Source: Escherichia phage vB_EcoM_DE7. From it: a stretch of DNA of 64,000 bases. Location of the stretch: the sequence record OL825705.1, one strand, 5' to 3'. The stretch's first letter is position 1, and every line of letters starts with the position of its first letter. The notes under the pieces are model-generated. The model was not told where the DNA came from. It ran no database searches and worked only from the letters and a program-made list of their open reading frames with translations. Positions 46,247 to 57,790 of this stretch are shown in pieces. Made by a program: the position numbers and the translations under genes.

Positions 46247-46517
46247 AGAGAAGTGGGAGATTTTACCACTAGTTAGTGAGTGCGGCAATGGTTGTGAAAT
46301 GTACATGATACGTGGTCATGTTCCAGAACCAATTGCACTTGAGATGATAAACAATTTTACAGATGGTTCTTACAAAGACTTAGGAGAACCAACTGTCAAG
46401 CAACAATGGGTTAAACCTGTACCAGACAGCACAGGTAACTGTAGTGTACTTTATCACGTTGTAGACCCTGCAAAATGCAAATCTGCAATGGCAGTAACAA
46501 ACGTAACTTTTGATTGA
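46239..46517 (+). CDS. hypothetical protein
   Basis: 92-aa ORF. Confidence 0.3.
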   Translation: MAKEKWEILPLVSECGNGCEMYMIRGHVPEPIALEMINNFTDGSYKDLGEPTVKQQWVKPVPDSTGNCSVLYHVVDPAKCKSAMAVTNVTFD

Positions 46518-47410
46518 GAGAGAAAACTATGAAAACATCTATCCGTGTTACAGTTCATTCACCAACTAAAGGAACTCATGAAGAAGAGTTTAACATCATC
46601 CAATTCCCTTCTGGTGAGATTGGTGGAAACTTTTCACCAGAGTTTGTTGATTTTACTGCTTATGCAGCATCATCTATCAACAATGTGGTTATGATTGTAA
46701 AAGGTTATGATAAAGATACATTGTTTGCTGTGGCACTTGCTAAAGAGGCGGTGGACAACTTAGTACCTCATAAGTTTGCTATGAAGACCATTATCTTTTA
46801 CTATTTGCCAAATGCACGTTATGACCGTCACATGTTTAAAGGTGATGCAGCAGCTTTGAAAGTGTTTGCACAACAGGTTAATGCAATGGGTTTTGATGCA
46901 GTCTGTGCAGTTGACCCTCACAGCTATGTACCAGAGAACCTATTTAACTGCTTCCAGAGTATTCCTCAAAAGGAAATTGCAGTCCACTATGCAAATGACC
47001 CACTGGTTGATTACTTAGTAGCCCCAGATGCAGGTGCTGCTAAGAAGATTGCAGAGACTGCTAAAGAGGTGGATAAACCATACATCACAATGTCTAAAGT
47101 GCGTAACCTCAAGACTGGTGAGATTACCGGTATGCGAATCCTTGATGATATTGATTTGACCGATAAAACCGTTATGATTCTCGACGATATCTGTGATGGT
47201 GGTCGGACCTTCATAGAAGCAGCTAAACATCTTCGTGAAGCAGGTGCAAAACGTGTGGAGCTTTATGTAACTCATGGCATTTTCTCTAAAGGTGTTGAAA
47301 ACCTTCTTGACAATGGCATTGACCACATCTACACTACAAACTCTTTAGGGGAAGCTAAAGACCGTGGCTTAGCACATTATGGTCAAGTTACTGTAGCAAA
47401 CCTTGATTAA
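46514..47410 (+). CDS. ribose-phosphate pyrophosphokinase (PRPP synthetase) family protein
   Basis: PRS-like motifs YLPNARYDR, VDPHS, APDAGAAKK and PRPP-binding loop VMILDDICDGGRT. Confidence 0.7.
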   Translation: MREKTMKTSIRVTVHSPTKGTHEEEFNIIQFPSGEIGGNFSPEFVDFTAYAASSINNVVMIVKGYDKDTLFAVALAKEAVDNLVPHKFAMKTIIFYYLPNARYDRHMFKGDAAALKVFAQQVNAMGFDAVCAVDPHSYVPENLFNCFQSIPQKEIAVHYANDPLVDYLVAPDAGAAKKIAETAKEVDKPYITMSKVRNLKTGEITGMRILDDIDLTDKTVMILDDICDGGRTFIEAAKHLREAGAKRVELYVTHGIFSKGVENLLDNGIDHIYTTNSLGEAKDRGLAHYGQVTVANLD

Positions 47411-47417
47411 AACTTTA

Positions 47418-47442
47418 TAGGGGCTTAAAAGCCCCATTTTGA
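47418..47442 (+). terminator. rho-independent terminator
   Basis: GGGGCTT/AAGCCCC hairpin followed by ATTTT. Confidence 0.45.
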
Positions 47443-49238
47443 GAGAGATTAAAAAGATGACTAAATCACTTTATGCAGTACCAGCAGGTTTAAACGCAGA
47501 TGCTTACAAGGCATCACATATATATCAGTATCCAGATGCTACACAGTATCTTATGTTGAACCTGACACCACGTAGTGACAAATGGTTTAACAGTCCTTTA
47601 GCCATTGACGGTGTAGTTGCTTTTGGTATTCAACGTTTTGTTAAAGATTACCTGATAGACCACTGGAACGCCACCTTTTTTGAACGTGACAAAAAAGAAG
47701 CAATTGACGAAGTCTTAGAAGTCATGAACGGTGTTCTGGGTAAAGATGCTATTGGTCGAGAACACTGGGAAGCACTACATGACTTAGGTTATCTACCAGT
47801 TGAAGTGTACGCTGTAGAAGAAGGCACAGTTGTACCTATGCGTGTACCAATGATTGTCTTCCAGAACACTGTTTCAGGTTTCCATTGGGTAGCTGGGTAT
47901 CTGGAAGATGCTTTCTCTGCTGAGATTTGGAAGGCTTGCACCATTGCAACTATTGCATTGCACTACAAACGTATCTGTAAGAAGTGGGCTGACCTTACTT
48001 GTGACAATGACTTACATTTGCCTTATCAGTGCCATGACTTTGCCATGCGTGGTATGTCTGGCTTTACTGATGACGCATTTAACGCTGTAGGCCACTTAAC
48101 CAGCTTTAAAGGAACTGACAGCTTCCCTGCTGTGTATACAGCTAAACGCATCTATGGACAGTCCTACCCAATCTCTGATATTGGTAGTTCTGTGCCAGCT
48201 ACTGAACACTCTGTAATGTGTGCAAACATTGCTTGGGAAGGTGGTAATGAGTTGATTGAAGAAGAAAGACGCTTTAAAGGTGAGTTACAAACCTTCCGTC
48301 GTTTCTTAACAGAAACTTACCCAACTGGTATTGCAAGTGTTGTTTCAGACACTTATAATTTCTGGAGAACTGTATCAGAAATCTTACCAGCACTTCGTAA
48401 AGAGATTATGGAACGTGACGGCAAACTGGTAATTCGTCCTGACTCTGGCGACCCTGTACATATTGTCACAGGTTATAAAGCAATCCACTTAGAGTGTGCT
48501 AAAAAAGCTTATTACGAACACCTAAGCAAGCTGGAAGCCAGCGACACAAAGTTGAATGCTGTTCTGAACATGAATCTTGAAGACATTCACTATATTATGG
48601 CTGGGTGGTTACGTACAGAAGGCTATGAAATGGTGGTTGACAGAGAAGACTTTGAAGTAGCTGATACAGTGCTTCTGAAAGATGCCTACATCAACGGCTC
48701 TGCAAACGTTGTAACACGTCCTGTAGCAGAGATTGATGGGGCTATTAAGACCCTGTATAACATCTTCGGAGGGACTATCAACTCTAAAGGTTTTAAAGTA
48801 CTGGATGAACACATTGGCCTTATCTATGGTGACTCTATCACGCTGGAACGTGCAAACGAAATCCTGAAGCGTCTGTATGAAATGGGTTTTGCAAGCTCTA
48901 ACGTAGTGTTTGGTGTAGGTTCTTACACTTACCAGTACATGACTCGTGACACCTTTGCATTTGCTGTCAAAGCAACTCTTGCAAGCATTGGTGGCAAAGA
49001 GATTATGCTTGCAAAAGACCCTAAAACAGATAGCGGTGTTAAGAAGTCTGCTTTTGGTGGTGTAGCACCTGTGTGGGATGGCGATAAGCTGAAAGCTGTA
49101 GATGGCTATGGATTCCAGAGCTTTGCAGATGTGCTTGAACATCCAGCTTGTGCTTTACGTTTAGTCTTTAGTGACTCTGAGCAGTTCGGTTACACAACTC
49201 TTGGTGATATTCGAAATAATATTGACAAGCAACTCTAA
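47439..49238 (+). CDS. nicotinamide phosphoribosyltransferase family protein (Nampt/NadV-like)
   Basis: N-terminal DAYKASHIYQYPD matches the Nampt substrate-binding signature (DSYKVTHYKQYPP in human NAMPT, from memory); 599 aa. Confidence 0.8.
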   Translation: MREIKKMTKSLYAVPAGLNADAYKASHIYQYPDATQYLMLNLTPRSDKWFNSPLAIDGVVAFGIQRFVKDYLIDHWNATFFERDKKEAIDEVLEVMNGVLGKDAIGREHWEALHDLGYLPVEVYAVEEGTVVPMRVPMIVFQNTVSGFHWVAGYLEDAFSAEIWKACTIATIALHYKRICKKWADLTCDNDLHLPYQCHDFAMRGMSGFTDDAFNAVGHLTSFKGTDSFPAVYTAKRIYGQSYPISDIGSSVPATEHSVMCANIAWEGGNELIEEERRFKGELQTFRRFLTETYPTGIASVVSDTYNFWRTVSEILPALRKEIMERDGKLVIRPDSGDPVHIVTGYKAIHLECAKKAYYEHLSKLEASDTKLNAVLNMNLEDIHYIMAGWLRTEGYEMVVDREDFEVADTVLLKDAYINGSANVVTRPVAEIDGAIKTLYNIFGGTINSKGFKVLDEHIGLIYGDSITLERANEILKRLYEMGFASSNVVFGVGSYTYQYMTRDTFAFAVKATLASIGGKEIMLAKDPKTDSGVKKSAFGGVAPVWDGDKLKAVDGYGFQSFADVLEHPACALRLVFSDSEQFGYTTLGDIRNNIDKQL

Positions 49239-49244
49239 AAGTAT

Positions 49245-49628
49245 ATGATAAGAGGCTCCTACGGGAGCCTTTTTAATCTTCTGGAGAAGATTATGAAAAT
49301 CAAAGAAATGAATATCAATATTGTCTTAGAAGAACGTTGGGAGAACATCAAGAAGCCTGAAAATGGTCATAAGTTCCTCAACAAAATCTTAGTAGCAGCT
49401 AAAGAAGAACTGACTGGCAAGGTTGCAGCAGCAATCACAATAAAGGTGTGTGTAAAAGGTCTTCCAGACAATCACCAATTTGCACTTGACGAGTTTAAAG
49501 AGAGCTTCTACAATCCAAACAAACAGATGCTTGAAAGTAACTTTGCAGTATCTACAAGTATCGTCCATGACAGAAGCTTTATCCTTTACAAGAATATGAG
49601 AGGTGAGTCATGCAAGCATATTGGATAG
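49245..49628 (+). CDS. hypothetical protein
   Basis: 127-aa ORF after terminator hairpin GGCTCC-TACG-GGAGCC. Confidence 0.35.
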   Translation: MIRGSYGSLFNLLEKIMKIKEMNINIVLEERWENIKKPENGHKFLNKILVAAKEELTGKVAAAITIKVCVKGLPDNHQFALDEFKESFYNPNKQMLESNFAVSTSIVHDRSFILYKNMRGESCKHIG

Positions 49629-49786
49629 AAATTTTCCTGTCACTTGGTAGTGTAGCAGTATTTGTTTACCTTCTTTGCAAGTACTATGCAGAACACAAAA
49701 AATGTGACTTCTGTAATGGAGAAGGTTATACAAGAGCAGGTTGTTGCCCTATGTGTGGCGGTTCTGGTAAAATGTTTAATAAGTAA
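49610..49786 (+). CDS. small membrane peptide with two CxxCxGxG zinc-finger motifs (not in ORF track)
   Basis: 58 codons: hydrophobic segment then CDFCNGEGY and CPMCGGSGK. Confidence 0.3.
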   Translation: MQAYWIEIFLSLGSVAVFVYLLCKYYAEHKKCDFCNGEGYTRAGCCPMCGGSGKMFNK

Positions 49787-49814
49787 TTCAACAGTAAATT
49801 AAGAGGAAAGTATT

Positions 49815-52181
49815 ATGCGCATGGTAAACGACCACGCAGAAGTGATTAAGAGTTCAACTTCTTTAGAGACGTCTCAAGCACAGATTACAATGACACCCGA
49901 AATGTTCAGCCTTTTGAGTTCTGGTGTATATACATTTAAAGAGCGAGCAGTAATTCGTGAACTGTCATGTAACGCAGTAGATGCTCAGAAAGAAGCTGGA
50001 AAAGAGAACATCCCGTTCCATGTGCATTTACCTACTCGTTTTGAGCCTTACTTTGAAGTTCGTGATTTTGGAACTGGATTGACTCATGATAAAGTTATGA
50101 GTTTGTATCTAAATTACGGGGCTTCTACGAAGAATGACTCTAATGACTACATTGGTGCAATGGGTATCGGCTCAAAATCCCCATTTGCAATTGCTCAGTC
50201 ATTCACAGTATCTAGCTATGTTGATGGTGTTGTCAATAAGTACTCTGTTTATCTTGAGAATGGTATCCCTCAAGTAACTAAGCTGACCACCAACCCAACA
50301 AAAGAGCCTAATGGTTTAGCTGTACGTGTAGCAGTTGCTGACCATCGTATTTCAAAGTTCTTTGAAGAGGCTGGTAATGTATACTCATACTTTGCTGTAA
50401 AACCAGAAAGTAATATCGAGTATGACGATGTGTTAGCAGACATGAATGTCATTGCCCGTGAAGAAGGTGTTTATGATGCCATGATTCACAAACAAAGCTG
50501 GCGTTCTAGTGGCAACAGGACAGAGTTTAATGTGGTGATGGGTAACATTGCCTACCCAGTTAACATGGAAGCATTACTTGGTGATGATTTCTTCAAAGTC
50601 TTGCCAGAGTTTTTCCGTAGGAGCGTAGACCTTGTAAACATCTACATGCCTATTGGTTCAGTTGCTATTGCAGCTTCTCGTGAAGCATTGCAGATGAATG
50701 ACACGACAAAAAATGTTATCATCGAGGCTACTAAAAAGATAACTGAAGCAATTACAAAGGATGTTATCAAGAAAGTTAATAGTCAACCTACACTCATGGA
50801 TGCTGCACAGGCTTATGCTGAGTTACGCTTGAACTCACGAGAGATGTTTAATGCTGTGTGTCCAAAGCTAGAGTGGGGAGGCGTTAAGCTTGATTCTCTG
50901 GAAGAAGAATTACTAAACATTCGTCGTGGAATTATCTACGCAGAAGACGGCTCAGTTATCTATGAACGTGATGGTAAAGGTAATATTAAGGTTGATAGGA
51001 ACGGAAACAACATTCCTAAAGTAGATTATCTTTATGACCCAGTTGCTTATGTCAAGTTTAACTCTTTAGAGAGTAAGATTCGTGCAACAGCGCTTTCCTA
51101 CACTCAAGAGGCAAGTATGTTCAATATCTTTGGTGCAATGCGTAAAAGTCAAATTGAACAGTTTTTGTTTGTTATAAATGACCGTCGAAATAAAAACGGT
51201 ACTGAGAAGACTGTAGGACGCAACCAAATCTTGCGTGGTGCATGTCGAGACTATGCCAGTGAATCAAGTCTGTTTCACAGATACAATGGTATTGTCTTTG
51301 TATTCTCTAATGAGAAAGAGCTAGACGACTTAATCAATCTGCACAAACTTGATAAAAGCTTGTTAAAGATTGTGAAGATGTCTGATAAGGAACACCATTA
51401 TCAGCGTAAAGAAGCTGTAAGAGGCGTTGTAAAACTTTGGAAAGCTGTTCCAGCAGAAGGTGTAGCTTCCTATAAAGAGGTTTCAGAGGACTTTGATACA
51501 ATTGAAGAACCTCAGCTTTATATCAAGGCTGTTGGTGACACAGTTGATGGCGAATGTTTTTGCTCATCTCCAGAAGATGTAGCTAAGTCAGTTGCTAATG
51601 TTACAGGGAAGACAGTCTATGTTTTCCGAAAAGCGAATTGGAAAAAGATACCAGAAGACTGGATTGAAGTAGATGAGAAACTCTTGAACGACAGCTTAAC
51701 TGATGTTCATTGGATTAATCATAACAGGTATATGACACGTATCTATATGAATGGTGTCCTTGACCTCACAAGCAGTTGGATTATTGCCAGAAACTTTACG
51801 TTCAATAACAGGAAGATTTCTCGTGGCTATTGTTATTCACGGGATACAAACAAAACTATCTTCTTAGAAGGTAATGAAGATGCTGTAGAGGCAATCTTCG
51901 GTAAAATCCAATACGTTGCTGCACCGTTTGCATACACTTACACTGTTAGCAGGTTGCAAACTTTGAAAGAATGCCTTGACAACGATACAAAGCTGTACAA
52001 GAAAATCAAGAAAGCTGGTGACCGTATGGTCATTAAGGTGACAAACTATCTTTCAAAAAGAAAACAAGAAAACTTCTTGCTTTCTCATTTAGATTGGAAT
52101 AAAGTGTCACCCATCGAAGTGAGTAAGTTCTTAGGCTTTGATGTGAAGTGTGTTCCAGAAGGGACTACAATTTACGATTAA
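49815..52181 (+). CDS. rIIA: rIIA-like protein (N-terminal GHKL-type ATPase fold)
   Basis: 788 aa; Bergerat-fold-like motifs ELSCNAVDAQ, DFGTGLTHDKV, GAMGIGSKSPF; followed by rIIB-sized ORF. Confidence 0.5.
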   Translation: MRMVNDHAEVIKSSTSLETSQAQITMTPEMFSLLSSGVYTFKERAVIRELSCNAVDAQKEAGKENIPFHVHLPTRFEPYFEVRDFGTGLTHDKVMSLYLNYGASTKNDSNDYIGAMGIGSKSPFAIAQSFTVSSYVDGVVNKYSVYLENGIPQVTKLTTNPTKEPNGLAVRVAVADHRISKFFEEAGNVYSYFAVKPESNIEYDDVLADMNVIAREEGVYDAMIHKQSWRSSGNRTEFNVVMGNIAYPVNMEALLGDDFFKVLPEFFRRSVDLVNIYMPIGSVAIAASREALQMNDTTKNVIIEATKKITEAITKDVIKKVNSQPTLMDAAQAYAELRLNSREMFNAVCPKLEWGGVKLDSLEEELLNIRRGIIYAEDGSVIYERDGKGNIKVDRNGNNIPKVDYLYDPVAYVKFNSLESKIRATALSYTQEASMFNIFGAMRKSQIEQFLFVINDRRNKNGTEKTVGRNQILRGACRDYASESSLFHRYNGIVFVFSNEKELDDLINLHKLDKSLLKIVKMSDKEHHYQRKEAVRGVVKLWKAVPAEGVASYKEVSEDFDTIEEPQLYIKAVGDTVDGECFCSSPEDVAKSVANVTGKTVYVFRKANWKKIPEDWIEVDEKLLNDSLTDVHWINHNRYMTRIYMNGVLDLTSSWIIARNFTFNNRKISRGYCYSRDTNKTIFLEGNEDAVEAIFGKIQYVAAPFAYTYTVSRLQTLKECLDNDTKLYKKIKKAGDRMVIKVTNYLSKRKQENFLLSHLDWNKVSPIEVSKFLGFDVKCVPEGTTIYD

Positions 52182-52260
52182 AGTGTTTGACAAGGGGCTT
52201 TGAAGCCCCTTAGAATAGCCTTACAAAATGATTTATTAACTAACAAGAGAGAGTAATAAG

Positions 52261-53370
52261 ATGACTACTAAAACTAAAGCACAGATTGACGCAGAAATTT
52301 ACAAACTGGTTAAAGAAGGCAAGCTGACTAAAACAGCTATTGCACAGAAGTTCAACACTTCAACCCGTTCAGTTGGTCGTGCTGTAGAGCGTCATGAAGC
52401 AACCTTAAAGGGTAAGAAAAAGGCAGCTTCGACACCAGCTAAGAAGACTTTGAAGCAAGTTGCTAAGTCAGTTAAAAAGAAAGCTGGAAAACCAGTTGAA
52501 AAGGTTGTTAAAGACACTGTACAGAAAGTTCCAGTAAATAAACTGCACGAAGCTATGCAGAAAGATGACAAGATTGAGTACATGATTACTGGTGACTCTG
52601 TAATTATGACTTACGGTTCAGAATCTGAAATTGTTGAGTCTACTCATCCGAACTATCAAGAAATTGTAGTTCATGTTGTGAAAGGTGAGTTCAAGAAAGC
52701 ATTTGAACTGATGAACATTCGTAAGTCTATCGAAAACTTCACTCAGGGTGCTATCACAATCAAAGGTGACAAGTTATTCTACGGTGCTGTTGAGATGCGT
52801 TCTACTCTGGTTGACCGTATTCTTCACATGATGAAGACTGGTGATAAAGGTTTTGAACGACTTGTAATGTTCTTCGAAAAACTGATGGAAAACCCATCTA
52901 AAGATTCTGTAGAACAACTTTGGGGATTCGTATCTCACCTTGATGTTGAAATTGATGAAGAAGGTTACATCATTGGTTGGAAGAAAGTCTCTACTCGTGA
53001 AGGCAAGTTGGTTGACTCCCACACCTACAAAGTACCTAATGATTTGGGTAACATTGTAGAAATGCCACGTTGGATGGTTGACAACAACCGTAACGTAACT
53101 TGCTCTCAGGGTCTTCATGTTGGTGCTTGGGATTATGTTCGTTGCTTCTCAGGTGATACAATCCTGAAGGTTCGTGTCCATCCACGAGATGTTGTATCTG
53201 TTCCGACTGATTACAACGATATGAAGATGCGTTCATCCCGTTATGAAGTTGCAGCAATCGTTGATAATCAACGTAAAGTGTTGAAAGCATGGGACGGTAA
53301 GACTGAAGCTTTGCATGTCATCGTTGGCACTGCTGGTGAACTCATCTCCCAACGTAAACGTGAAATCTAA
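52261..53370 (+). CDS. rIIB: rIIB-like protein
   Basis: 369-aa ORF immediately downstream of the rIIA-like gene; positional inference. Confidence 0.4.
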   Translation: MTTKTKAQIDAEIYKLVKEGKLTKTAIAQKFNTSTRSVGRAVERHEATLKGKKKAASTPAKKTLKQVAKSVKKKAGKPVEKVVKDTVQKVPVNKLHEAMQKDDKIEYMITGDSVIMTYGSESEIVESTHPNYQEIVVHVVKGEFKKAFELMNIRKSIENFTQGAITIKGDKLFYGAVEMRSTLVDRILHMMKTGDKGFERLVMFFEKLMENPSKDSVEQLWGFVSHLDVEIDEEGYIIGWKKVSTREGKLVDSHTYKVPNDLGNIVEMPRWMVDNNRNVTCSQGLHVGAWDYVRCFSGDTILKVRVHPRDVVSVPTDYNDMKMRSSRYEVAAIVDNQRKVLKAWDGKTEALHVIVGTAGELISQRKREI

Positions 53371-53387
53371 TAAGTAATTTCTTAAAA

Positions 53388-53409
53388 GGCTGCTTCGGCG
53401 GCCTTTTTT
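53388..53409 (+). terminator. rho-independent terminator
   Basis: GGCTGC-TTCG-GCGGCC hairpin followed by TTTTTT. Confidence 0.65.
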
Positions 53410-53470
53410 ATTTGTATTTTGTGCAGAGTGCTGTATAATTGTTGTCACGATAAACTAAACAGGAGAACCA

Positions 53471-54019
53471 ATGAAGAAGTTGATTCTAGGTTTGTGCTTA
53501 ATGTTTACAGCACACTTATCTTATGCAGTTGACTGCCCAGAGCTATCAATTAGCCAAAAAGTTAACATGTTAAAAGCTTACCAGTATGGTGAGAATAATA
53601 TGGGGAAGGGCTGGGGTATTACTCTAGCAGCTATAGCCTTACAAGAGTCAGAGTTAGGTCTGAAGGTAGAGAATAAAAAGACCCATGACTATGGTATTTT
53701 CCAGAATCACTTGAAGACTGTTGTAAAGCGTAACAAAATCAGTCCTAATGTGGCTAAAAAGAAACTCTTAAAAGACTTTGACTATGCTGCAAAGGAAACA
53801 CACAAAGAGCTTGAGTTTTGGACTAAGGTACATGGTCAACCAAAGTCAAAGAAGACTTTACAAAAAGTTTTAGCGTCATATAATGCTGGGTATTCGTACA
53901 AAATCCCTAAAGCTAAGAAATACTCTCAAGATGTTTACAACAATATGAAAGTCATCGCTCAATGTGAATTTGCAACAAACATTTCTAAGGTAAACCATGA
54001 AAAAATTAAGAAAGTCTGA
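53471..54019 (+). CDS. secreted lytic transglycosylase-like protein (possible endolysin)
   Basis: Signal-peptide-like N-terminus MKKLILGLCLMFTAHLSYA; SLT-like AIALQESELG ... YGIFQ. Confidence 0.4.
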   Translation: MKKLILGLCLMFTAHLSYAVDCPELSISQKVNMLKAYQYGENNMGKGWGITLAAIALQESELGLKVENKKTHDYGIFQNHLKTVVKRNKISPNVAKKKLLKDFDYAAKETHKELEFWTKVHGQPKSKKTLQKVLASYNAGYSYKIPKAKKYSQDVYNNMKVIAQCEFATNISKVNHEKIKKV

Positions 54020-54692
54020 TGAAGTACTGTGTCATGCTTATGACTTACATCCTCATGAGTTAGGCCTTGATTCCTGTGTATGGACCCCAGAACAGTGCAG
54101 AGATTTTGAAGATACTGCAAGAGAGGTTGTATGCTCACTTGAAGAGTTCCACACATCAGAATCAATTGTGAACGTTGTGGACAAAGAGACTGGACAATCT
54201 ATAGGTGTAAGACGTGACAGTTTAGTCATAGTCAATAAAGACCTTGTAGAAAAAGGTAACCTCATCTTAGCAGATATTGATGGTGTTCTTACAAATTTTA
54301 ATCACGAAGATTACTCAACGGAATTGATTGATGGGTCATTTTCACAGTACACTAATTTGCTTGACTCTGTAAGAGCAAAACCAACGTATGTTTTCAATAT
54401 TATTGATGCAATTGCTAACCATGCTGCCATTGGACTCTTGACAGCGAGGGGTGAATCTCAGAGAATACCTACTGAGATGTTTTTAAGGCATTACATAGAG
54501 CATGATTACATGCTTTTTATGCGTGGTTTTGGAACTAACTCGATAAATGCAGAAAGTTTGAAAGTGAGGATGATTCAGTCTTGCATTATTCCTTACTTTA
54601 ATATAGTATGCTTTATAGAAGATACAGAGAAGAATGTTCAGAAGGTAAACAGAATCCTTCCACACATCAAAACCATGTTAGTTAAACATTGA
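53997..54692 (+). CDS. HAD-superfamily phosphatase-like protein
   Basis: HAD motif I ILADIDGVLTN and downstream FIEDTEKN. Confidence 0.5.
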   Translation: MKKLRKSDEVLCHAYDLHPHELGLDSCVWTPEQCRDFEDTAREVVCSLEEFHTSESIVNVVDKETGQSIGVRRDSLVIVNKDLVEKGNLILADIDGVLTNFNHEDYSTELIDGSFSQYTNLLDSVRAKPTYVFNIIDAIANHAAIGLLTARGESQRIPTEMFLRHYIEHDYMLFMRGFGTNSINAESLKVRMIQSCIIPYFNIVCFIEDTEKNVQKVNRILPHIKTMLVKH

Positions 54693-54703
54693 GAGAAAAA
54701 CTT

Positions 54704-55168
54704 ATGAACAATATCATTACGGTAGCACTGGACGTCACAGCAAACAAATCTGAAGTAGTTCGTAACATTATCAAGAACAACTTTGAGGGTAAAATCTTCC
54801 GTGCTGTCAACGTAAAAGCAGATGGTAACATTCGAGAGTATCGTGCCCTTTTGAATGTTAAGAAACACGTAAAAGGCGCTGGTTCAACGACTGCACACAA
54901 AGAAAACCTGATGACTATCTATGATATGGGTATGGCTTCAGAGTTAGGTGCTGAAGGTATCGTTAAAGAAGGTGCTCCGTATCGCTCTTTCAATCTGGAA
55001 ACTGCTCTTATGCTTTCCTTTACAAGTGGTTCTAAAACAACTACTTATCTCTTTACTGATGCTGCAACGGTATCTGCTATCAAGGATAGCACCGTCAAAG
55101 CTGGGGTAGCTGCTGCTGCAAAAGCTTCTTCGATGGCTGCAAATGTCCTTGCTAAAGTCCTCGGTTAA
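54704..55168 (+). CDS. hypothetical protein
   Basis: Track ORF 54689 trimmed to ATG 54704; 154 aa. Confidence 0.35.
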   Translation: MNNIITVALDVTANKSEVVRNIIKNNFEGKIFRAVNVKADGNIREYRALLNVKKHVKGAGSTTAHKENLMTIYDMGMASELGAEGIVKEGAPYRSFNLETALMLSFTSGSKTTTYLFTDAATVSAIKDSTVKAGVAAAAKASSMAANVLAKVLG

Positions 55169-55180
55169 GGTTAAGATACA

Positions 55181-55205
55181 GGCTCCTTCGGGAGCCTTTT
55201 TCATT
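55181..55205 (+). terminator. rho-independent terminator
   Basis: GGCTCC-TTCG-GGAGCC hairpin followed by TTTTT. Confidence 0.6.
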
Positions 55206-55220
55206 TCAGGAGATTGTTAA

Positions 55221-55568
55221 ATGACATTTAAAGAGTTCTGTCAAGCTACTTTCATAATTGTTTTCTTAGTTGGAGCAGGTGTCTGGGGAGGATACTCTTA
55301 CAGAGACTATCAAGTTGTTGAATCTGAGCTAAACAATGAGAAACTAATCAGTGTTGCTAAAGATGCTTATCAGGAAGGTTTAGCCACACTCAGCACCAAT
55401 TACAAAAATGATTTGAAAGATGTGCTTGCTAAGAATAAGCATACAAAAGAGGTACTAACGTATGAAAAGACTAAGCCAGAGTTTTATAATGTTTGTGTTA
55501 CTGATAATTATGTCAGGGTGTTCAACGAACAAAGTGAACAGTACATTCAAAAACTCCCAAGTAAGTGA
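55221..55568 (+). CDS. i-spanin (Rz-like)
   Basis: N-terminal TM (FIIVFLVGAGVWGGY) followed by charged coiled-coil; overlaps a lipoprotein ORF in another frame. Confidence 0.55.
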   Translation: MTFKEFCQATFIIVFLVGAGVWGGYSYRDYQVVESELNNEKLISVAKDAYQEGLATLSTNYKNDLKDVLAKNKHTKEVLTYEKTKPEFYNVCVTDNYVRVFNEQSEQYIQKLPSK

Positions 55569-55731
55569 GAGTGACAAGTACACTCAAGAAGAGTCAAGAT
55601 TCACTGTCAAAGGCAACACTGGTAGTGATGTGGCAGCAGCCCTTGAGTTTTATCGTGATGGTTTTTACCAGTGCACAATCAAAGCTAATAATCTTATTGA
55701 TATGATTTTATTAGGAAACAAACATCAATGA
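55462..55731 (+). CDS. o-spanin (Rz1-like outer-membrane lipoprotein)
   Basis: Signal peptide with lipobox-like IMSGC; gene starts inside the 3' part of the i-spanin gene in a different frame. Confidence 0.55.
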   Translation: MKRLSQSFIMFVLLIIMSGCSTNKVNSTFKNSQVSESDKYTQEESRFTVKGNTGSDVAAALEFYRDGFYQCTIKANNLIDMILLGNKHQ

Positions 55732-55997
55732 AAGAGAATGAAGACACTTTCTATGTGGAAGGGTACTTACTGTTACCACGACCAAAAGAAACTTATATGC
55801 GGGTTGATTTCTCACCAACAATTATGGATAACGTAATGTGTCATATCTTTATGCAAGGTGTCACAGCACAGCTTAAGCATGTTGGTAAAGAGTGCAAAAT
55901 AAAGGTTGACACTCATCCAGAAATCAAAGAGAATCACTACACATGGTTCTTACCAGACTCTAAAGAAATCTTAGCAGTTCTAAAAACGAGGAAGTAA
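55728..55997 (+). CDS. hypothetical protein
   Basis: 89-aa ORF. Confidence 0.3.
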   Translation: MKENEDTFYVEGYLLLPRPKETYMRVDFSPTIMDNVMCHIFMQGVTAQLKHVGKECKIKVDTHPEIKENHYTWFLPDSKEILAVLKTRK

Positions 55998-55999
55998 CT

Positions 56000-56323
56000 A
56001 TGCAGATTAATGGAAGAGATTTTGTAGCAGTTTACTACGAGAAAGATAAAGAAGTTGGCGTAGCACAAGTATCTTATGGTAATGGTAAGTGGTTGTATGG
56101 GACAATCGCAGTAGTCGGGGCAAGAAGTGATACAAAAACTTTTAAAGATTGTGTTGACCTTCTTGAAGAATCCATCCACAATCATTGGTGTCTGATATGG
56201 ATGACTGACAACGAAGTGATAGAACGCTTCAAAAAGATTGGTATCAACATTGATAGCATTGAGCATGTTGATTTGTATGAGCTAACTGAGAAGGTAAACT
56301 ATGAAAGCTCTAGAGGTAGTTGA
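56000..56323 (+). CDS. hypothetical protein
   Basis: 107-aa ORF. Confidence 0.3.
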   Translation: MQINGRDFVAVYYEKDKEVGVAQVSYGNGKWLYGTIAVVGARSDTKTFKDCVDLLEESIHNHWCLIWMTDNEVIERFKKIGINIDSIEHVDLYELTEKVNYESSRGS

Positions 56324-56528
56324 CAAAGACACTGGAGAAGTCATATCTGCATGTGTTTTCATAAGCGATGACACAGTGATACCATTTTACAACCTTGATG
56401 GTTTTAGTTTTACAGGGATAACTCCAGAAGAATACTTTGAAGACCTCACCTTTGCCAGAATCTCTATAGATACATTCTATAAATGTTTCTATGATGAAGG
56501 TAAAGAGTTACGAGAAACTGAACTATAA
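56301..56528 (+). CDS. hypothetical protein
   Basis: 75-aa ORF. Confidence 0.3.
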   Translation: MKALEVVDKDTGEVISACVFISDDTVIPFYNLDGFSFTGITPEEYFEDLTFARISIDTFYKCFYDEGKELRETEL

Positions 56529-56539
56529 GGCGTATATTT

Positions 56540-56740
56540 ATGGCTGACTTCTGCAAAGATTGTGCTATCGAAATGTTCGGACGTGATACAGGAGACTTAA
56601 AAGGTCTTATCACTGAAGATGACTTTAAAGCTGGCTATGCAATGCCAGTAATCTGTGAAGGTTGTGGATGTATCTGGGTAGACCACGAAGGACAACGTGT
56701 AAAACCTTCAGAAGATAAAGAATCTTGGGAGAGATGCTAA
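56540..56740 (+). CDS. small zinc-binding protein (hypothetical)
   Basis: 66 aa with CKDC ... CEGCGC. Confidence 0.3.
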   Translation: MADFCKDCAIEMFGRDTGDLKGLITEDDFKAGYAMPVICEGCGCIWVDHEGQRVKPSEDKESWERC

Positions 56741-57526
56741 ATGGGTATTGTAAAAATAATCAATGGGGATATCTTCTCCGCATTTGATAAAGGTAAGTTT
56801 GATATCATTGGTCACGGTTGCAACTGTATGAACTTAATGGGTGCAGGTATCGCTGACAAGATTTCTAAACTTTACCCAAAAGCATATGAGACTGATACAG
56901 AAGTTTATCTGTATGCAGGTGGTATAGGCCACAAACCCTGTGAAAATTTACTAGGCAATTTCTCTGTAGCACGTTTAGAACAAGGCCGTATAGCTAACCT
57001 TTACACTCAGCTTAAGACTGGTAAAGATGCCCGATACAGTGCTTTAGAGTCATCTTTGAAACAGCTTAACAGATACTGTGGAGTCAATCAGTTGAAGAAA
57101 GTTGGGTTACCTATGATTGGTGCAGGTATCGGTGGACTAGACTCTCAAGCCGTCACAGTCATCATTAATCAGGTGATGAAGAGCGTAGATGTTTACCTGT
57201 ATGTCTACGAGACAGAGATGTACAACGAGTTACACTCAGGTTGGAAGAACTACTGCGAACCGGAATACTTTGCAGGTGTAGTAACGTTCACAGACAATAC
57301 AGTTACCCTCTTCAGACGAAGAAAGGGTAAGGTACATCAAAGTAACCCTCCGGTTGAAAAGATGTCCCTAAGTAACGCTCTAGTTACCCACCTGTCGAAG
57401 AGCAATCACAGAATTGCCGTAACATTTGGCAGTGATGCAGATACATATATCTATGCAAGAACTGATGAGGATGTTGAGGAAATTTTCTCATCATCAGAAG
57501 TTACCTTCTTAGACGCAAAGAACTAA
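56741..57526 (+). CDS. macrodomain protein (TARG1/OARD1-type ADP-ribose hydrolase-like) with C-terminal extension
   Basis: NGDIFSAF ... DIIGHGCNCMNLMGAGIA matches the GDLF ... HC.S ... MGAGIA pattern of OARD1-type macrodomains (from memory). Confidence 0.5.
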   Translation: MGIVKIINGDIFSAFDKGKFDIIGHGCNCMNLMGAGIADKISKLYPKAYETDTEVYLYAGGIGHKPCENLLGNFSVARLEQGRIANLYTQLKTGKDARYSALESSLKQLNRYCGVNQLKKVGLPMIGAGIGGLDSQAVTVIINQVMKSVDVYLYVYETEMYNELHSGWKNYCEPEYFAGVVTFTDNTVTLFRRRKGKVHQSNPPVEKMSLSNALVTHLSKSNHRIAVTFGSDADTYIYARTDEDVEEIFSSSEVTFLDAKN

Positions 57527-57595
57527 GAAACTCTGTAGAATATTCACAATAGACTAAGCCTTTCTTATCTGGTAAATTTTTCAGGTAAGGAGGGC

Positions 57596-57790
57596 TTTTT
57601 CATTTCAGGATTGTGCAGGTAGATTTCTGGACAGAAATCTGTAGAGAGGATTTTGAACTCCAAAGAGAAAATTCATTTTCAAACTGTGCAGGTAATCTCC
57701 AAAGAGCTTTTTCATTTTCAAAACGTGCAGAGAAAAATCAGGTCGGGCAAGAAAAATCATTTTCGAATTGTGCAGGTAGGTGGGTGCAGG
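57596..57790. repeat. iteron-like direct repeat array (4-5 copies of CATTTTCAAAnTGTGCAGGTA)
   Basis: Copies at ~57601, ~57673, ~57714, ~57759 plus a GTGCAGGTGGGG extension; spacing 41-72 bp; non-coding. Confidence 0.6.

What the first reader, a model, noticed from the sequence alone, without database searches (positions are those of the whole stretch)
56741..57526. Macrodomain (OARD1/TARG1-like) protein with an unassigned C-terminal domain
The N-terminal GDIF...HGCNC...MGAGIA pattern matches ADP-ribose-processing macrodomains; about 100 further residues have no recognisable motif. A phage ADP-ribose hydrolase could reverse host ADP-ribosylation of DNA, RNA or protein, or destroy ADP-ribose-derived signals. 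It lies near the NAD module, suggesting a shared counter-defence theme.
Basis: partly seen in the sequence, partly recalled or inferred. Interest (0 to 1): 0.5.

Follow-up and report, generated by a model that had tools for sequence, protein, structure and literature searches.

The report
Phage anti-DarT-like macrodomain with orphan tail domain
This Felix O1-like phage gene encodes an ADP-ribose-removing macrodomain related to a T4 protein that protects T4 from the DarTG2 bacterial defence, fused to a fast-evolving 105-residue domain that matches nothing known.

Summary
Window 56741-57526 (+) is a 261-aa ORF. Residues 1-156 are a real macrodomain: Pfam Macro scores above its cut-off, the AF2 model has pLDDT 88.5, and the best fold matches are TARG1, DarG and Poa1p.

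The window is a Felixounavirus. The gene is already annotated in about 200 close relatives as 'phosphatase' or 'O-acetyl-ADP-ribose deacetylase'.

The nearest characterised homologue is T4 Tk.4 (35% identity, same motifs). A 2025 preprint names Tk.4 AdfM and shows T4 needs it to resist DarTG2. The likeliest job is therefore removing ADP-ribose from phage DNA. This is inferred, not shown. The catalytic Lys of TARG1 and DarG is Gln here, as it is in Tk.4.

Residues 157-261 form a confidently predicted beta-rich domain with no Pfam, PDB or viral-structure match. It occurs only fused to this macrodomain in Ounavirinae-like phages. It diverges about twice as fast as the macrodomain.

The whole gene exists as two alleles about 42% identical in otherwise ~94% identical genomes, with the break exactly at the start codon.

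The link to the NAD genes is weak: they lie 7.5 kb upstream and the pairing is absent in T4. Verdict: a known kind of counter-defence enzyme with an uncharacterised, lineage-specific appendage.

The parts
56741..57526 (+). Complete gene: 261-aa macrodomain plus C-terminal domain protein (stop codon included)
   Evidence: ORF list and sequence; phrog_335 over the full length at E 2e-111; full length conserved in 270 phage records
56741..57208 (+). Macrodomain, residues 1-156 (TARG1/DarG/Poa1p-like clade; T4 Tk.4/AdfM type)
   Evidence: Pfam Macro; PADLOC DarG 1.1e-12 and NCBIfam DarG 2.7e-12, macro part only; AF2 and Foldseek; 35% identity to T4 Tk.4, E 3e-24
56813..56854 (+). H25-G-C-N28-C29 ... 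M33-G-A-G-I-A38: first ADP-ribose-binding loop. N28 aligns with PhiKZ AdfM N23.
   Evidence: Invariant columns in alignment A1; alignment A3; PhiKZ AdfM N23A reduces activity (PMC13309987)
56996..57010 (+). N86-L-Y-T89-Q90 motif. Q90 occupies the position of the catalytic Lys of TARG1 (K84) and DarG.
   Evidence: HMMER alignment to TARG1; MAFFT alignment A3; N86, T89 and Q90 invariant in 30 homologues; same NLYTQ in T4 Tk.4
57110..57136 (+). P124-M-I-G-A-G-I-G-G132: second glycine-rich (phosphate-binding) loop
   Evidence: P124, G127 and G129 invariant; aligned with PPLGxGNGG of DarG and AdfM
57209..57523 (+). Orphan C-terminal domain, residues 157-261: helix, six beta-strands, helix
57556..57597 (+). 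Terminator-like hairpin followed by a T-run, 30 nt after the stop codon
   Evidence: Consensus scan only; not tested further
56741..57711 (+). Extent of the allele-swap cassette: the segment that is highly divergent in an otherwise 94.4% identical Felixounavirus contig (L006)
   Evidence: blastn of L006 against the window; 30-nt windows show identity of 93-100% up to 56739 and 40-77% from 56740 onward

Best explanation
The gene encodes an AdfM-type 'orphan antitoxin-like' macrodomain ADP-ribosylglycohydrolase of a Felix O1-like phage. Proposed mechanism: during infection a host ADP-ribosyltransferase of the DarT2 kind ADP-ribosylates thymidines in phage single-stranded DNA and blocks replication. 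The macrodomain binds the ADP-ribose through its two glycine-rich loops (MGAGIA and IGAGIGG) and cleaves the base-ribose bond, restoring replicable DNA. The fused 105-residue C-terminal domain is not needed for macrodomain chemistry, since T4 Tk.4 lacks it. It most likely packs against the macrodomain as an accessory or specificity module, for example a contact surface for a host or phage protein. Its rapid divergence and the two-allele cassette suggest selection by variable host partners. What is shown: macro fold; homology to T4 Tk.4; conservation of the binding loops and of the Asn that matters in PhiKZ AdfM; restriction, fast evolution and allele dimorphism of the C-terminal domain. What is inferred: the substrate (ADP-ribosyl-thymidine DNA), catalytic competence despite Gln in place of Lys, and any role of the C-terminal domain.
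For: Macro fold and family. DarG profiles hit the macro part at 1e-12. T4 Tk.4 is 35% identical at E 3e-24 and shares HGCNC / MG(A/S)G / NLYTQ / PRIGAGIG. Tk.4 is the only T4 gene depleted on a DarTG2 host, its knockout sensitises T4, and it was named AdfM (preprint 10.1101/2025.11.20.689424). PhiKZ AdfM removes DarT2 ADP-ribose from DNA in vitro, and its N23 aligns with N28 here (PMC13309987). TARG1 and DarG, the nearest solved folds, both hydrolyse thymidine-linked ADP-ribose on ssDNA (PMC12879935). C-terminal domain: mean pLDDT is higher in the full-length model (mostly 82-92 per 10-residue block, pTM 0.87) than alone (78.6), consistent with packing on the macrodomain. It is found only fused to this macrodomain. 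It diverges faster: 79% against 50-55%, and 42% against about 15%. The whole-gene allele swap has its break at the ATG.
Against: No experiment exists on any Felix O1-type protein. The Lys that is catalytic in TARG1, and (from my recollection of the DarG literature) in DarG, is an invariant Gln here, so the chemistry must differ or be weaker. The T4 evidence is genetic, from a preprint, and gives no biochemistry for the Gln-type clade. The score against the DarG equivalog is 46.6 bits against a cut-off of 250. Macrodomains of this clade also act on small molecules (Poa1p: ADP-ribose-1''-phosphate; OARD1: O-acetyl-ADP-ribose). Net charge of the C-terminal domain ranges from -6 to +4 among homologues, so neither DNA binding nor DNA mimicry is a conserved property, and its role is essentially a guess.
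Confidence: 0.55

Rival explanations
1. It processes small ADP-ribose derivatives rather than DNA adducts. Candidate activities are ADP-ribose-1''-phosphate phosphatase (Poa1p-like, the origin of the 'phosphatase' annotation), O-acetyl-ADP-ribose deacetylase, or breakdown of ADP-ribose-derived immune signals. The free ADP-ribose could feed the phage NAD salvage genes.
For: Poa1p is among the best fold matches (E 1.5e-8), and His25 lies in the HGCNC motif of the stretch that aligns with the N-terminal part of Poa1p. GenBank annotators call the gene phosphatase or O-acetyl-ADP-ribose deacetylase. The phage carries prs and nadV on the same strand. Iyer et al. argue that phage macrodomains may prefer soluble ADP-ribose derivatives (PMC9503650). 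A PNKP-like gene lies 2 kb upstream.
Against: The NAD genes are 7.5 kb away and the association is absent in T4. The only functional data for this motif clade (T4 Tk.4) point to DarTG2. The existing annotations are transferred by similarity, not tested.
Confidence: 0.2
2. It reverses ADP-ribosylation of proteins or RNA, not DNA, installed by other host ADP-ribosyltransferase toxins or defence systems. The variable C-terminal domain would select the macromolecular target.
For: TARG1, the best sequence and fold match, removes ADP-ribose from proteins and nucleic acids (search listing of PMC7237415). The fast-evolving C-terminal domain and the two alleles fit a variable macromolecular partner.
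Against: The TARG1 catalytic Lys/Asp pair used for its protein-deconjugating chemistry is missing. No ADP-ribosyltransferase partner was looked for or seen in the phage region examined. The closest tested homologue acts against a DNA-modifying toxin.
Confidence: 0.15
3. It is a non-catalytic ADP-ribose reader or sponge. With Gln in place of the catalytic Lys, it binds ADP-ribose or ADP-ribosylated targets without cleaving them, and the C-terminal domain carries the effector function.
For: Gln90 replaces the Lys of TARG1 and DarG and is invariant. One GenBank record labels the alternative allele 'high-affinity ADP-ribose binding module'.
Against: T4 Tk.4 has the same Gln and has no C-terminal domain, yet suffices genetically against DarTG2. 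Many active macrodomains, such as the MacroD and viral Mac1 types, lack this Lys (my own knowledge of the family). The Asn28 position that matters in PhiKZ AdfM is invariant.
Confidence: 0.08

Closest known systems
T4 Tk.4 = AdfM (anti-DarT factor macrodomain; preprint 10.1101/2025.11.20.689424)
   Same: 35% identity over the whole macrodomain, E 3e-24. Identical motif set: HGCNC, MG(A/S)G, NLYTQ, PRIGAGIG. Phage-encoded and orphan, with no toxin partner. A Vs.1-like gene is nearby in both phages.
   Different: Tk.4 is 155 aa, macrodomain only. The window protein carries an extra 105-residue C-terminal domain that has no counterpart in Tk.4 or its neighbours tk.1-3, vs and vs.1 (hhalign probabilities 0.4% or lower).
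PhiKZ gp104 AdfM (PMC13309987)
   Same: Phage macrodomain of the same broad clade. The catalytic-site Asn (N23) aligns with N28. It is shown to remove DarT2 ADP-ribose from DNA.
   Different: Only 24% identical. gp104 is much closer to DarG (E 9e-25 to Mtb DarG) and keeps the FPTK lysine. It has no C-terminal domain and is imported into the phage nucleus.
DarG antitoxin of DarTG2 (NCBIfam NF048014; PADLOC DarG; PDB 5M31, 5M3E, 5M3I)
   Same: N-terminal macrodomain followed by a second domain. Macro part matches at 1e-12. Fold match E 7e-9.
   Different: 46.6 bits against the equivalog cut-off of 250. The catalytic Lys is replaced by Gln. The C-terminal domain shows no similarity to the DarT-binding domain of DarG, since both profiles stop at about position 150. 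No darT gene is adjacent.
Human TARG1 / OARD1 (PDB 4J5Q, 4J5R, 4J5S)
   Same: Best PDB match by sequence (E 2e-5) and by fold (E 1.2e-9, TM 0.81-0.84). Shares the His...MGAGIA loop.
   Different: Catalytic Lys84 corresponds to Gln90 and Asp125 to Gly131. TARG1 is a single domain.
Yeast Poa1p, ADP-ribose-1''-phosphate phosphatase (PDB 6LFQ-6LFU)
   Same: Fold match E 1.5e-8. The N-terminal His-containing motif aligns. This is the source of the 'phosphatase / Poa1p-like' annotations.
   Different: Weak sequence match (E about 0.01, N-terminal 50 residues only). Poa1p has no C-terminal domain, and its substrate is a small molecule from tRNA splicing.

Membership tests
Macro domain superfamily (Pfam PF01661) | Profile score above the curated gathering cut-off | tested here: met
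   28.9 bits against 22, E 1.2e-6, residues 25-141 covering profile positions 2-117 of 118
Macro domain superfamily (Pfam PF01661) | Three-layer alpha/beta macro fold | tested here: met
   AF2 pLDDT 88.5; 233 PDB matches at E<=0.001, and all 50 listed are macro-fold chains, with TM (target) up to 0.84
Macro domain superfamily (Pfam PF01661) | ADP-ribose binding or hydrolysis | not testable with these tools
   Only the conserved glycine-rich loops are seen
TARG1/OARD1 subfamily | Catalytic Lys84 and Asp125 | tested here: not met
   Lys84 aligns to Gln90 and Asp125 to Gly131 in the HMMER and MAFFT alignments. Residue numbering of TARG1 is from my own knowledge of the sequence.
DarG antitoxin (NCBIfam NF048014 equivalog) | Full-length equivalog score of at least 250 bits | tested here: not met
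   46.6 bits; only profile positions 4-150 of 338 match
DarG antitoxin (NCBIfam NF048014 equivalog) | C-terminal DarT-binding domain | tested here: not met
DarG antitoxin (NCBIfam NF048014 equivalog) | Adjacent darT toxin gene | tested here: not met
   The neighbours are small phage ORFs; none is annotated as a toxin, and the five flanking ORFs scanned have no Pfam match
AdfM, T4 Tk.4 type (phage anti-DarTG2 macrodomain) | Sequence homology and shared motif signature with Tk.4 | tested here: met
   35% identity, E 3e-24, HGCNC / NLYTQ / IGAGIG shared
AdfM, T4 Tk.4 type (phage anti-DarTG2 macrodomain) | Protects the phage from DarTG2 and removes DarT2 ADP-ribose from DNA | not testable with these tools
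   Known only for T4 by genetics and for PhiKZ gp104 by biochemistry
MacroD/YmdB-type O-acetyl-ADP-ribose deacetylase (as annotated in some GenBank records) | Close similarity to YmdB/MacroD proteins | tested here: inconclusive
   No YmdB or MacroD chain appears among PDB sequence hits at E<=1. Only weak hits to MacroD-like viral Mac1 domains at E about 0.01. TARG1, DarG and Poa1p rank first.

The most novel reading that the evidence does not exclude
The orphan C-terminal domain is a second, non-enzymatic neutralising module that binds a DarT-like toxin or another host defence protein. The protein would then be a functional analogue of full-length DarG (eraser plus stoichiometric inhibitor) built with an unrelated, possibly new fold. 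The two ~42%-identical alleles exchanged as a cassette among Felix O1-like phages would be matched to different host toxin variants.
Probability: 0.15. Interest if true: 0.6.

Novelty: new variant of a known kind. Interest (0 to 1): 0.42.

Why it matters
Felix O1-like phages are widely used against Salmonella and E. coli in typing, food safety and therapy. If this gene is an anti-DarTG2 factor, it would explain part of their host range and would extend the newly described AdfM counter-defence from T4-like and jumbo phages to Ounavirinae. The fused domain is the more open question. It is confidently predicted, restricted to one phage lineage, evolves faster than the enzyme it is attached to, and is swapped as a cassette between near-identical genomes. 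These are typical signs of a host-interaction surface. Working out its partner could reveal how a phage eraser enzyme is targeted or reinforced. It would also test whether the Gln-for-Lys macrodomain clade uses a different catalytic mechanism.

Tried and rejected
1. The word-indexed protein search with the C-terminal domain alone returned nothing. The exhaustive HMMER profile search replaced it.

2. Long proteins hit by the C-terminal profile (P0032, P0033, P0036-P0039) were checked. Four of the six (P0033, P0037, P0038, P0039) are PQQ/BamB-type beta-propeller repeat proteins; P0032 carries reverse-transcriptase domains and P0036 only a PAS domain. All score through several weak stretches at E 5e-7 to 8e-4. 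I rejected them as spurious beta-hairpin similarity.

3. P0031 (114 aa) looked like a stand-alone C-terminal domain. It begins inside the last macrodomain strand, so it is a truncated gene call.

4. Is the C-terminal domain homologous to the DarG C-terminal domain? No signal.

5. Is it homologous to the T4 genes next to tk.4, which would indicate a fusion or split? hhalign probabilities are 0.4% or lower.

6. Charge argument for DNA binding or DNA mimicry. In the window protein the macrodomain has pI 8.8 and the C-terminal domain 5.3. Across homologues the C-terminal net charge runs from -6 to +4, so I dropped the argument.

7. I first read 'VpaE1_ev035' as an experimentally evolved derivative of VpaE1 that had swapped alleles. 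The literature search suggests it may instead be an independent isolate from an infant-gut coliphage study; I did not open that paper, and I dropped the inference.

8. The afdb50 fold library was unavailable.

9. A plasmid tblastn to obtain a full DarG sequence gave only unnamed macro proteins.

10. The small Cys-rich ORFs upstream of the gene in two lineages are not detectably homologous (E 0.5).

Full report
**What is there.** Window 56741-57526 (+) is an intact ATG-to-TAA ORF of 261 codons. The window as a whole is a Felix O1-like phage: a 2.5-kb stretch around the gene is 96.9% identical to Escherichia phage GEP101 (Ounavirinae, Felixounavirus) and matches 241 phage records. In those records the gene is annotated variously as 'phosphatase', 'putative phosphatase', 'O-acetyl-ADP-ribose deacetylase', 'ymdB' or 'hypothetical protein'. 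None of these labels rests on an experiment.

**The N-terminal domain is a macrodomain.**
- Pfam Macro scores 28.9 bits against a cut-off of 22 (E 1.2e-6) over residues 25-141.
- phrog_335 ('phosphatase') matches the full length at E 2e-111.
- An AlphaFold2 model built on 30 homologues has mean pLDDT 88.5 and pTM 0.87.
- Foldseek against PDB ranks TARG1 first (E 1.2e-9, TM 0.81-0.84), then Thermus and Mycobacterium DarG macrodomains, then yeast Poa1p.
- Sequence search of PDB gives the same three: TARG1 at 2e-5, DarG at 1.5e-3, Poa1p at about 0.01.
- The PADLOC DarG and NCBIfam antitoxin_DarG profiles hit the macro part at about 1e-12, far below equivalog level (46.6 against 250 bits), and only over profile positions up to about 150.

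**Catalytic residues.** Thirty homologues share invariant G9, H25, G26, N28, C29, G36, A38, P46, G72, N86, T89, Q90, P124, G127 and G129. The alignments with TARG1, two DarG macrodomains, PhiKZ gp104 and a T4-like Tk.4 show three things.
- The Lys that is catalytic in TARG1 (Lys84) and conserved in DarG and PhiKZ gp104 ('PTK') is an invariant Gln here ('YTQ').
- TARG1 Asp125 corresponds to Gly131.
- Asn28 aligns with PhiKZ AdfM Asn23, whose mutation reduces de-ADP-ribosylation of DNA (PMC13309987).

So the protein belongs to the TARG1/DarG/Poa1p clade by fold and binding loops, but it is not a TARG1 or DarG orthologue by catalytic residues.

**Closest characterised relative.** tblastn shows the macro part in 2794 phage records, including T4-like phages, where it lies next to vs. 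In T4 that gene is tk.4, annotated 'phosphatase; contains A1pp phosphatase motif'. T4 Tk.4 is 35% identical to the window protein (E 3e-24) and carries the same HGCNC, MGSG, NLYTQ and PRIGAGIG motifs. A T4-like copy is 36% identical. A 2025 preprint using transposon libraries found tk.4 to be the single T4 gene depleted on a DarTG2-expressing host. It showed that a clean knockout sensitises T4 to DarTG2, and it named the protein AdfM (10.1101/2025.11.20.689424). Independently, PhiKZ gp104, a different and more DarG-like phage macrodomain (24% identical to ours; E 9e-25 to Mtb DarG), removes DarT2-installed ADP-ribose from DNA and rescues DarT2 toxicity (PMC13309987). TARG1 and DarG both hydrolyse thymidine-linked ADP-ribose on ssDNA (PMC12879935). 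The best-supported function is therefore reversal of DarT2-type DNA ADP-ribosylation. This is an inference from homology. The Gln-type clade has genetic support only, and no Felix O1-type protein has been tested.

**The C-terminal domain (residues 157-261).**
- Structure. AF2 predicts a compact unit: helix 158-167, six strands (179-184, 187-194, 197-201, 213-217, 225-229, 235-239) and helix 242-250. Confidence is higher in the full-length model (per-10-residue means mostly 82-92, pTM 0.87) than when the domain is modelled alone (pLDDT 78.6, pTM 0.68). That suggests it packs on the macrodomain, but I could not inspect the PAE.
- Distribution. An exhaustive HMMER profile search of 1.84 billion representative proteins found 12 hits. 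Six are the same macro-fusion family or fragments of it. The other six are long proteins scoring through several weak stretches: four PQQ-type propeller repeat proteins, one with reverse-transcriptase domains and one with only a PAS domain. I regard all six as spurious. The domain is thus confined to this fusion.
- Lineage. Genomic contexts of three divergent members are all Ounavirinae-like and syntenic, running rIIA/rIIB, then small ORFs, then the macro gene.
- No link to T4 neighbours or DarG. It is unrelated to the T4 genes flanking tk.4 and shows no similarity to the DarT-binding domain of DarG.
- Charge. Net charge varies from -6 to +4 among homologues, so neither DNA binding nor DNA mimicry is a conserved feature.

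**Evolutionary behaviour.** The C-terminal domain diverges about twice as fast as the macrodomain: 79% against 50-55% identity in the nearer relatives, and 42% against about 15% in distant ones. More striking, a metagenomic Felixounavirus contig (L006) is 94.4% identical in DNA to window 48741-56883. Sliding windows show identity of 93-100% up to position 56739, collapsing to 40-77% from the start codon onward. Similarity resumes only at about 57712. The protein encoded there (P0009) is 42% identical overall, 53% in the macrodomain and 25% in the C-terminal domain. This second allele is at least 95% conserved in 13 sequenced Felixounaviruses from both Salmonella and E. coli, whereas about 200 records carry the window's allele at 90% or more. 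A whole-gene cassette with two deeply divergent alleles in otherwise near-identical genomes fits a gene under host-driven diversifying or balancing selection, as expected for a counter-defence factor. It does not identify the partner.

**Context.** The gene closes a run of small same-strand ORFs. The stop of a 66-aa Cys-rich ORF (56540-56740) abuts its ATG (TAAATG). A terminator-like hairpin follows at 57556-57597. They lie 7.5 kb upstream, with rIIA, rIIB and about 13 ORFs in between. The T4 homologue has no such neighbours. The two may share a counter-defence theme, but nothing indicates a functional module.

**Verdict.** The macrodomain is a member of a recently recognised class of phage counter-defence enzymes (AdfM, T4 Tk.4 type), so that part is known biology. 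What is not explained is the lineage-specific, fast-evolving C-terminal domain with no assignable fold, and the two-allele cassette. I rate the feature a new variant of a known kind, of moderate interest. Confidence is 0.55 that its main role is reversing DarT2-type DNA ADP-ribosylation. I put about 0.15 on the C-terminal domain being a second, non-enzymatic neutralising module.

Noticed in passing
window 57591-57775 (intergenic, just downstream of the gene): Cluster of direct repeats with core TCATTTTCnAAnnGTGCAG: three exact copies (57673, 57712, 57757) plus one degenerate copy (57600), spaced 39-73 nt apart. The other four matches in the 64-kb window all need three mismatches, which is within what shuffles give. 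No Rfam family matches. The 3' edge of the allele-swap cassette falls inside this array. Function unknown; it could be a regulatory or recombination site.
   Followed up: partly
window 56540-56740 (+): 66-aa ORF with CxxC...CxxC spacing (zinc-ribbon-like) whose stop codon abuts the macro gene ATG (TAAATG), suggesting translational coupling. A distant relative (L005 7810-8001) has a 63-aa CxxC...CxxC ORF in the same position, but the two are not detectably homologous (E 0.5). No Pfam match.
   Followed up: partly
window 53471-54019 (+): 182-aa signal-peptide-bearing protein that is 32% identical (E 2e-16) to T4 Vs.1. In T4, Vs.1 lies two genes from tk.4, so a Vs.1-like gene and a Tk.4-like gene sit within about 3 kb of each other in both phage groups. 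A relative's copy has a weak Pfam SLT (transglycosylase) hit.
   Followed up: partly
window 46514-49238 (+): PRPP-synthetase-like ORF (Pribosyltran / Pribosyl_synth) followed by a 599-aa NAMPT/NadV (NAPRTase plus NAMPT_N). It lies 7.5 kb upstream of the macro gene.
   Followed up: partly
window 53997-54692 (+): 231-aa ORF annotated 'polynucleotide kinase' in GEP101 and 'PseT 5'-kinase/3'-phosphatase' in phage SE5. It has no Pfam hit here at E<=0.01, and only weak or faint HAD_PNKP hits on record for relatives. The annotation looks weakly founded.
   Followed up: no
GenBank records of Felixounavirus relatives (hits H1-H20, H86-H115): The same gene is annotated inconsistently: phosphatase, putative phosphatase, O-acetyl-ADP-ribose deacetylase, ymdB, high-affinity ADP-ribose binding module, Poa1p-like macro domain, hypothetical protein. 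None mentions the C-terminal domain or AdfM.
   Followed up: yes
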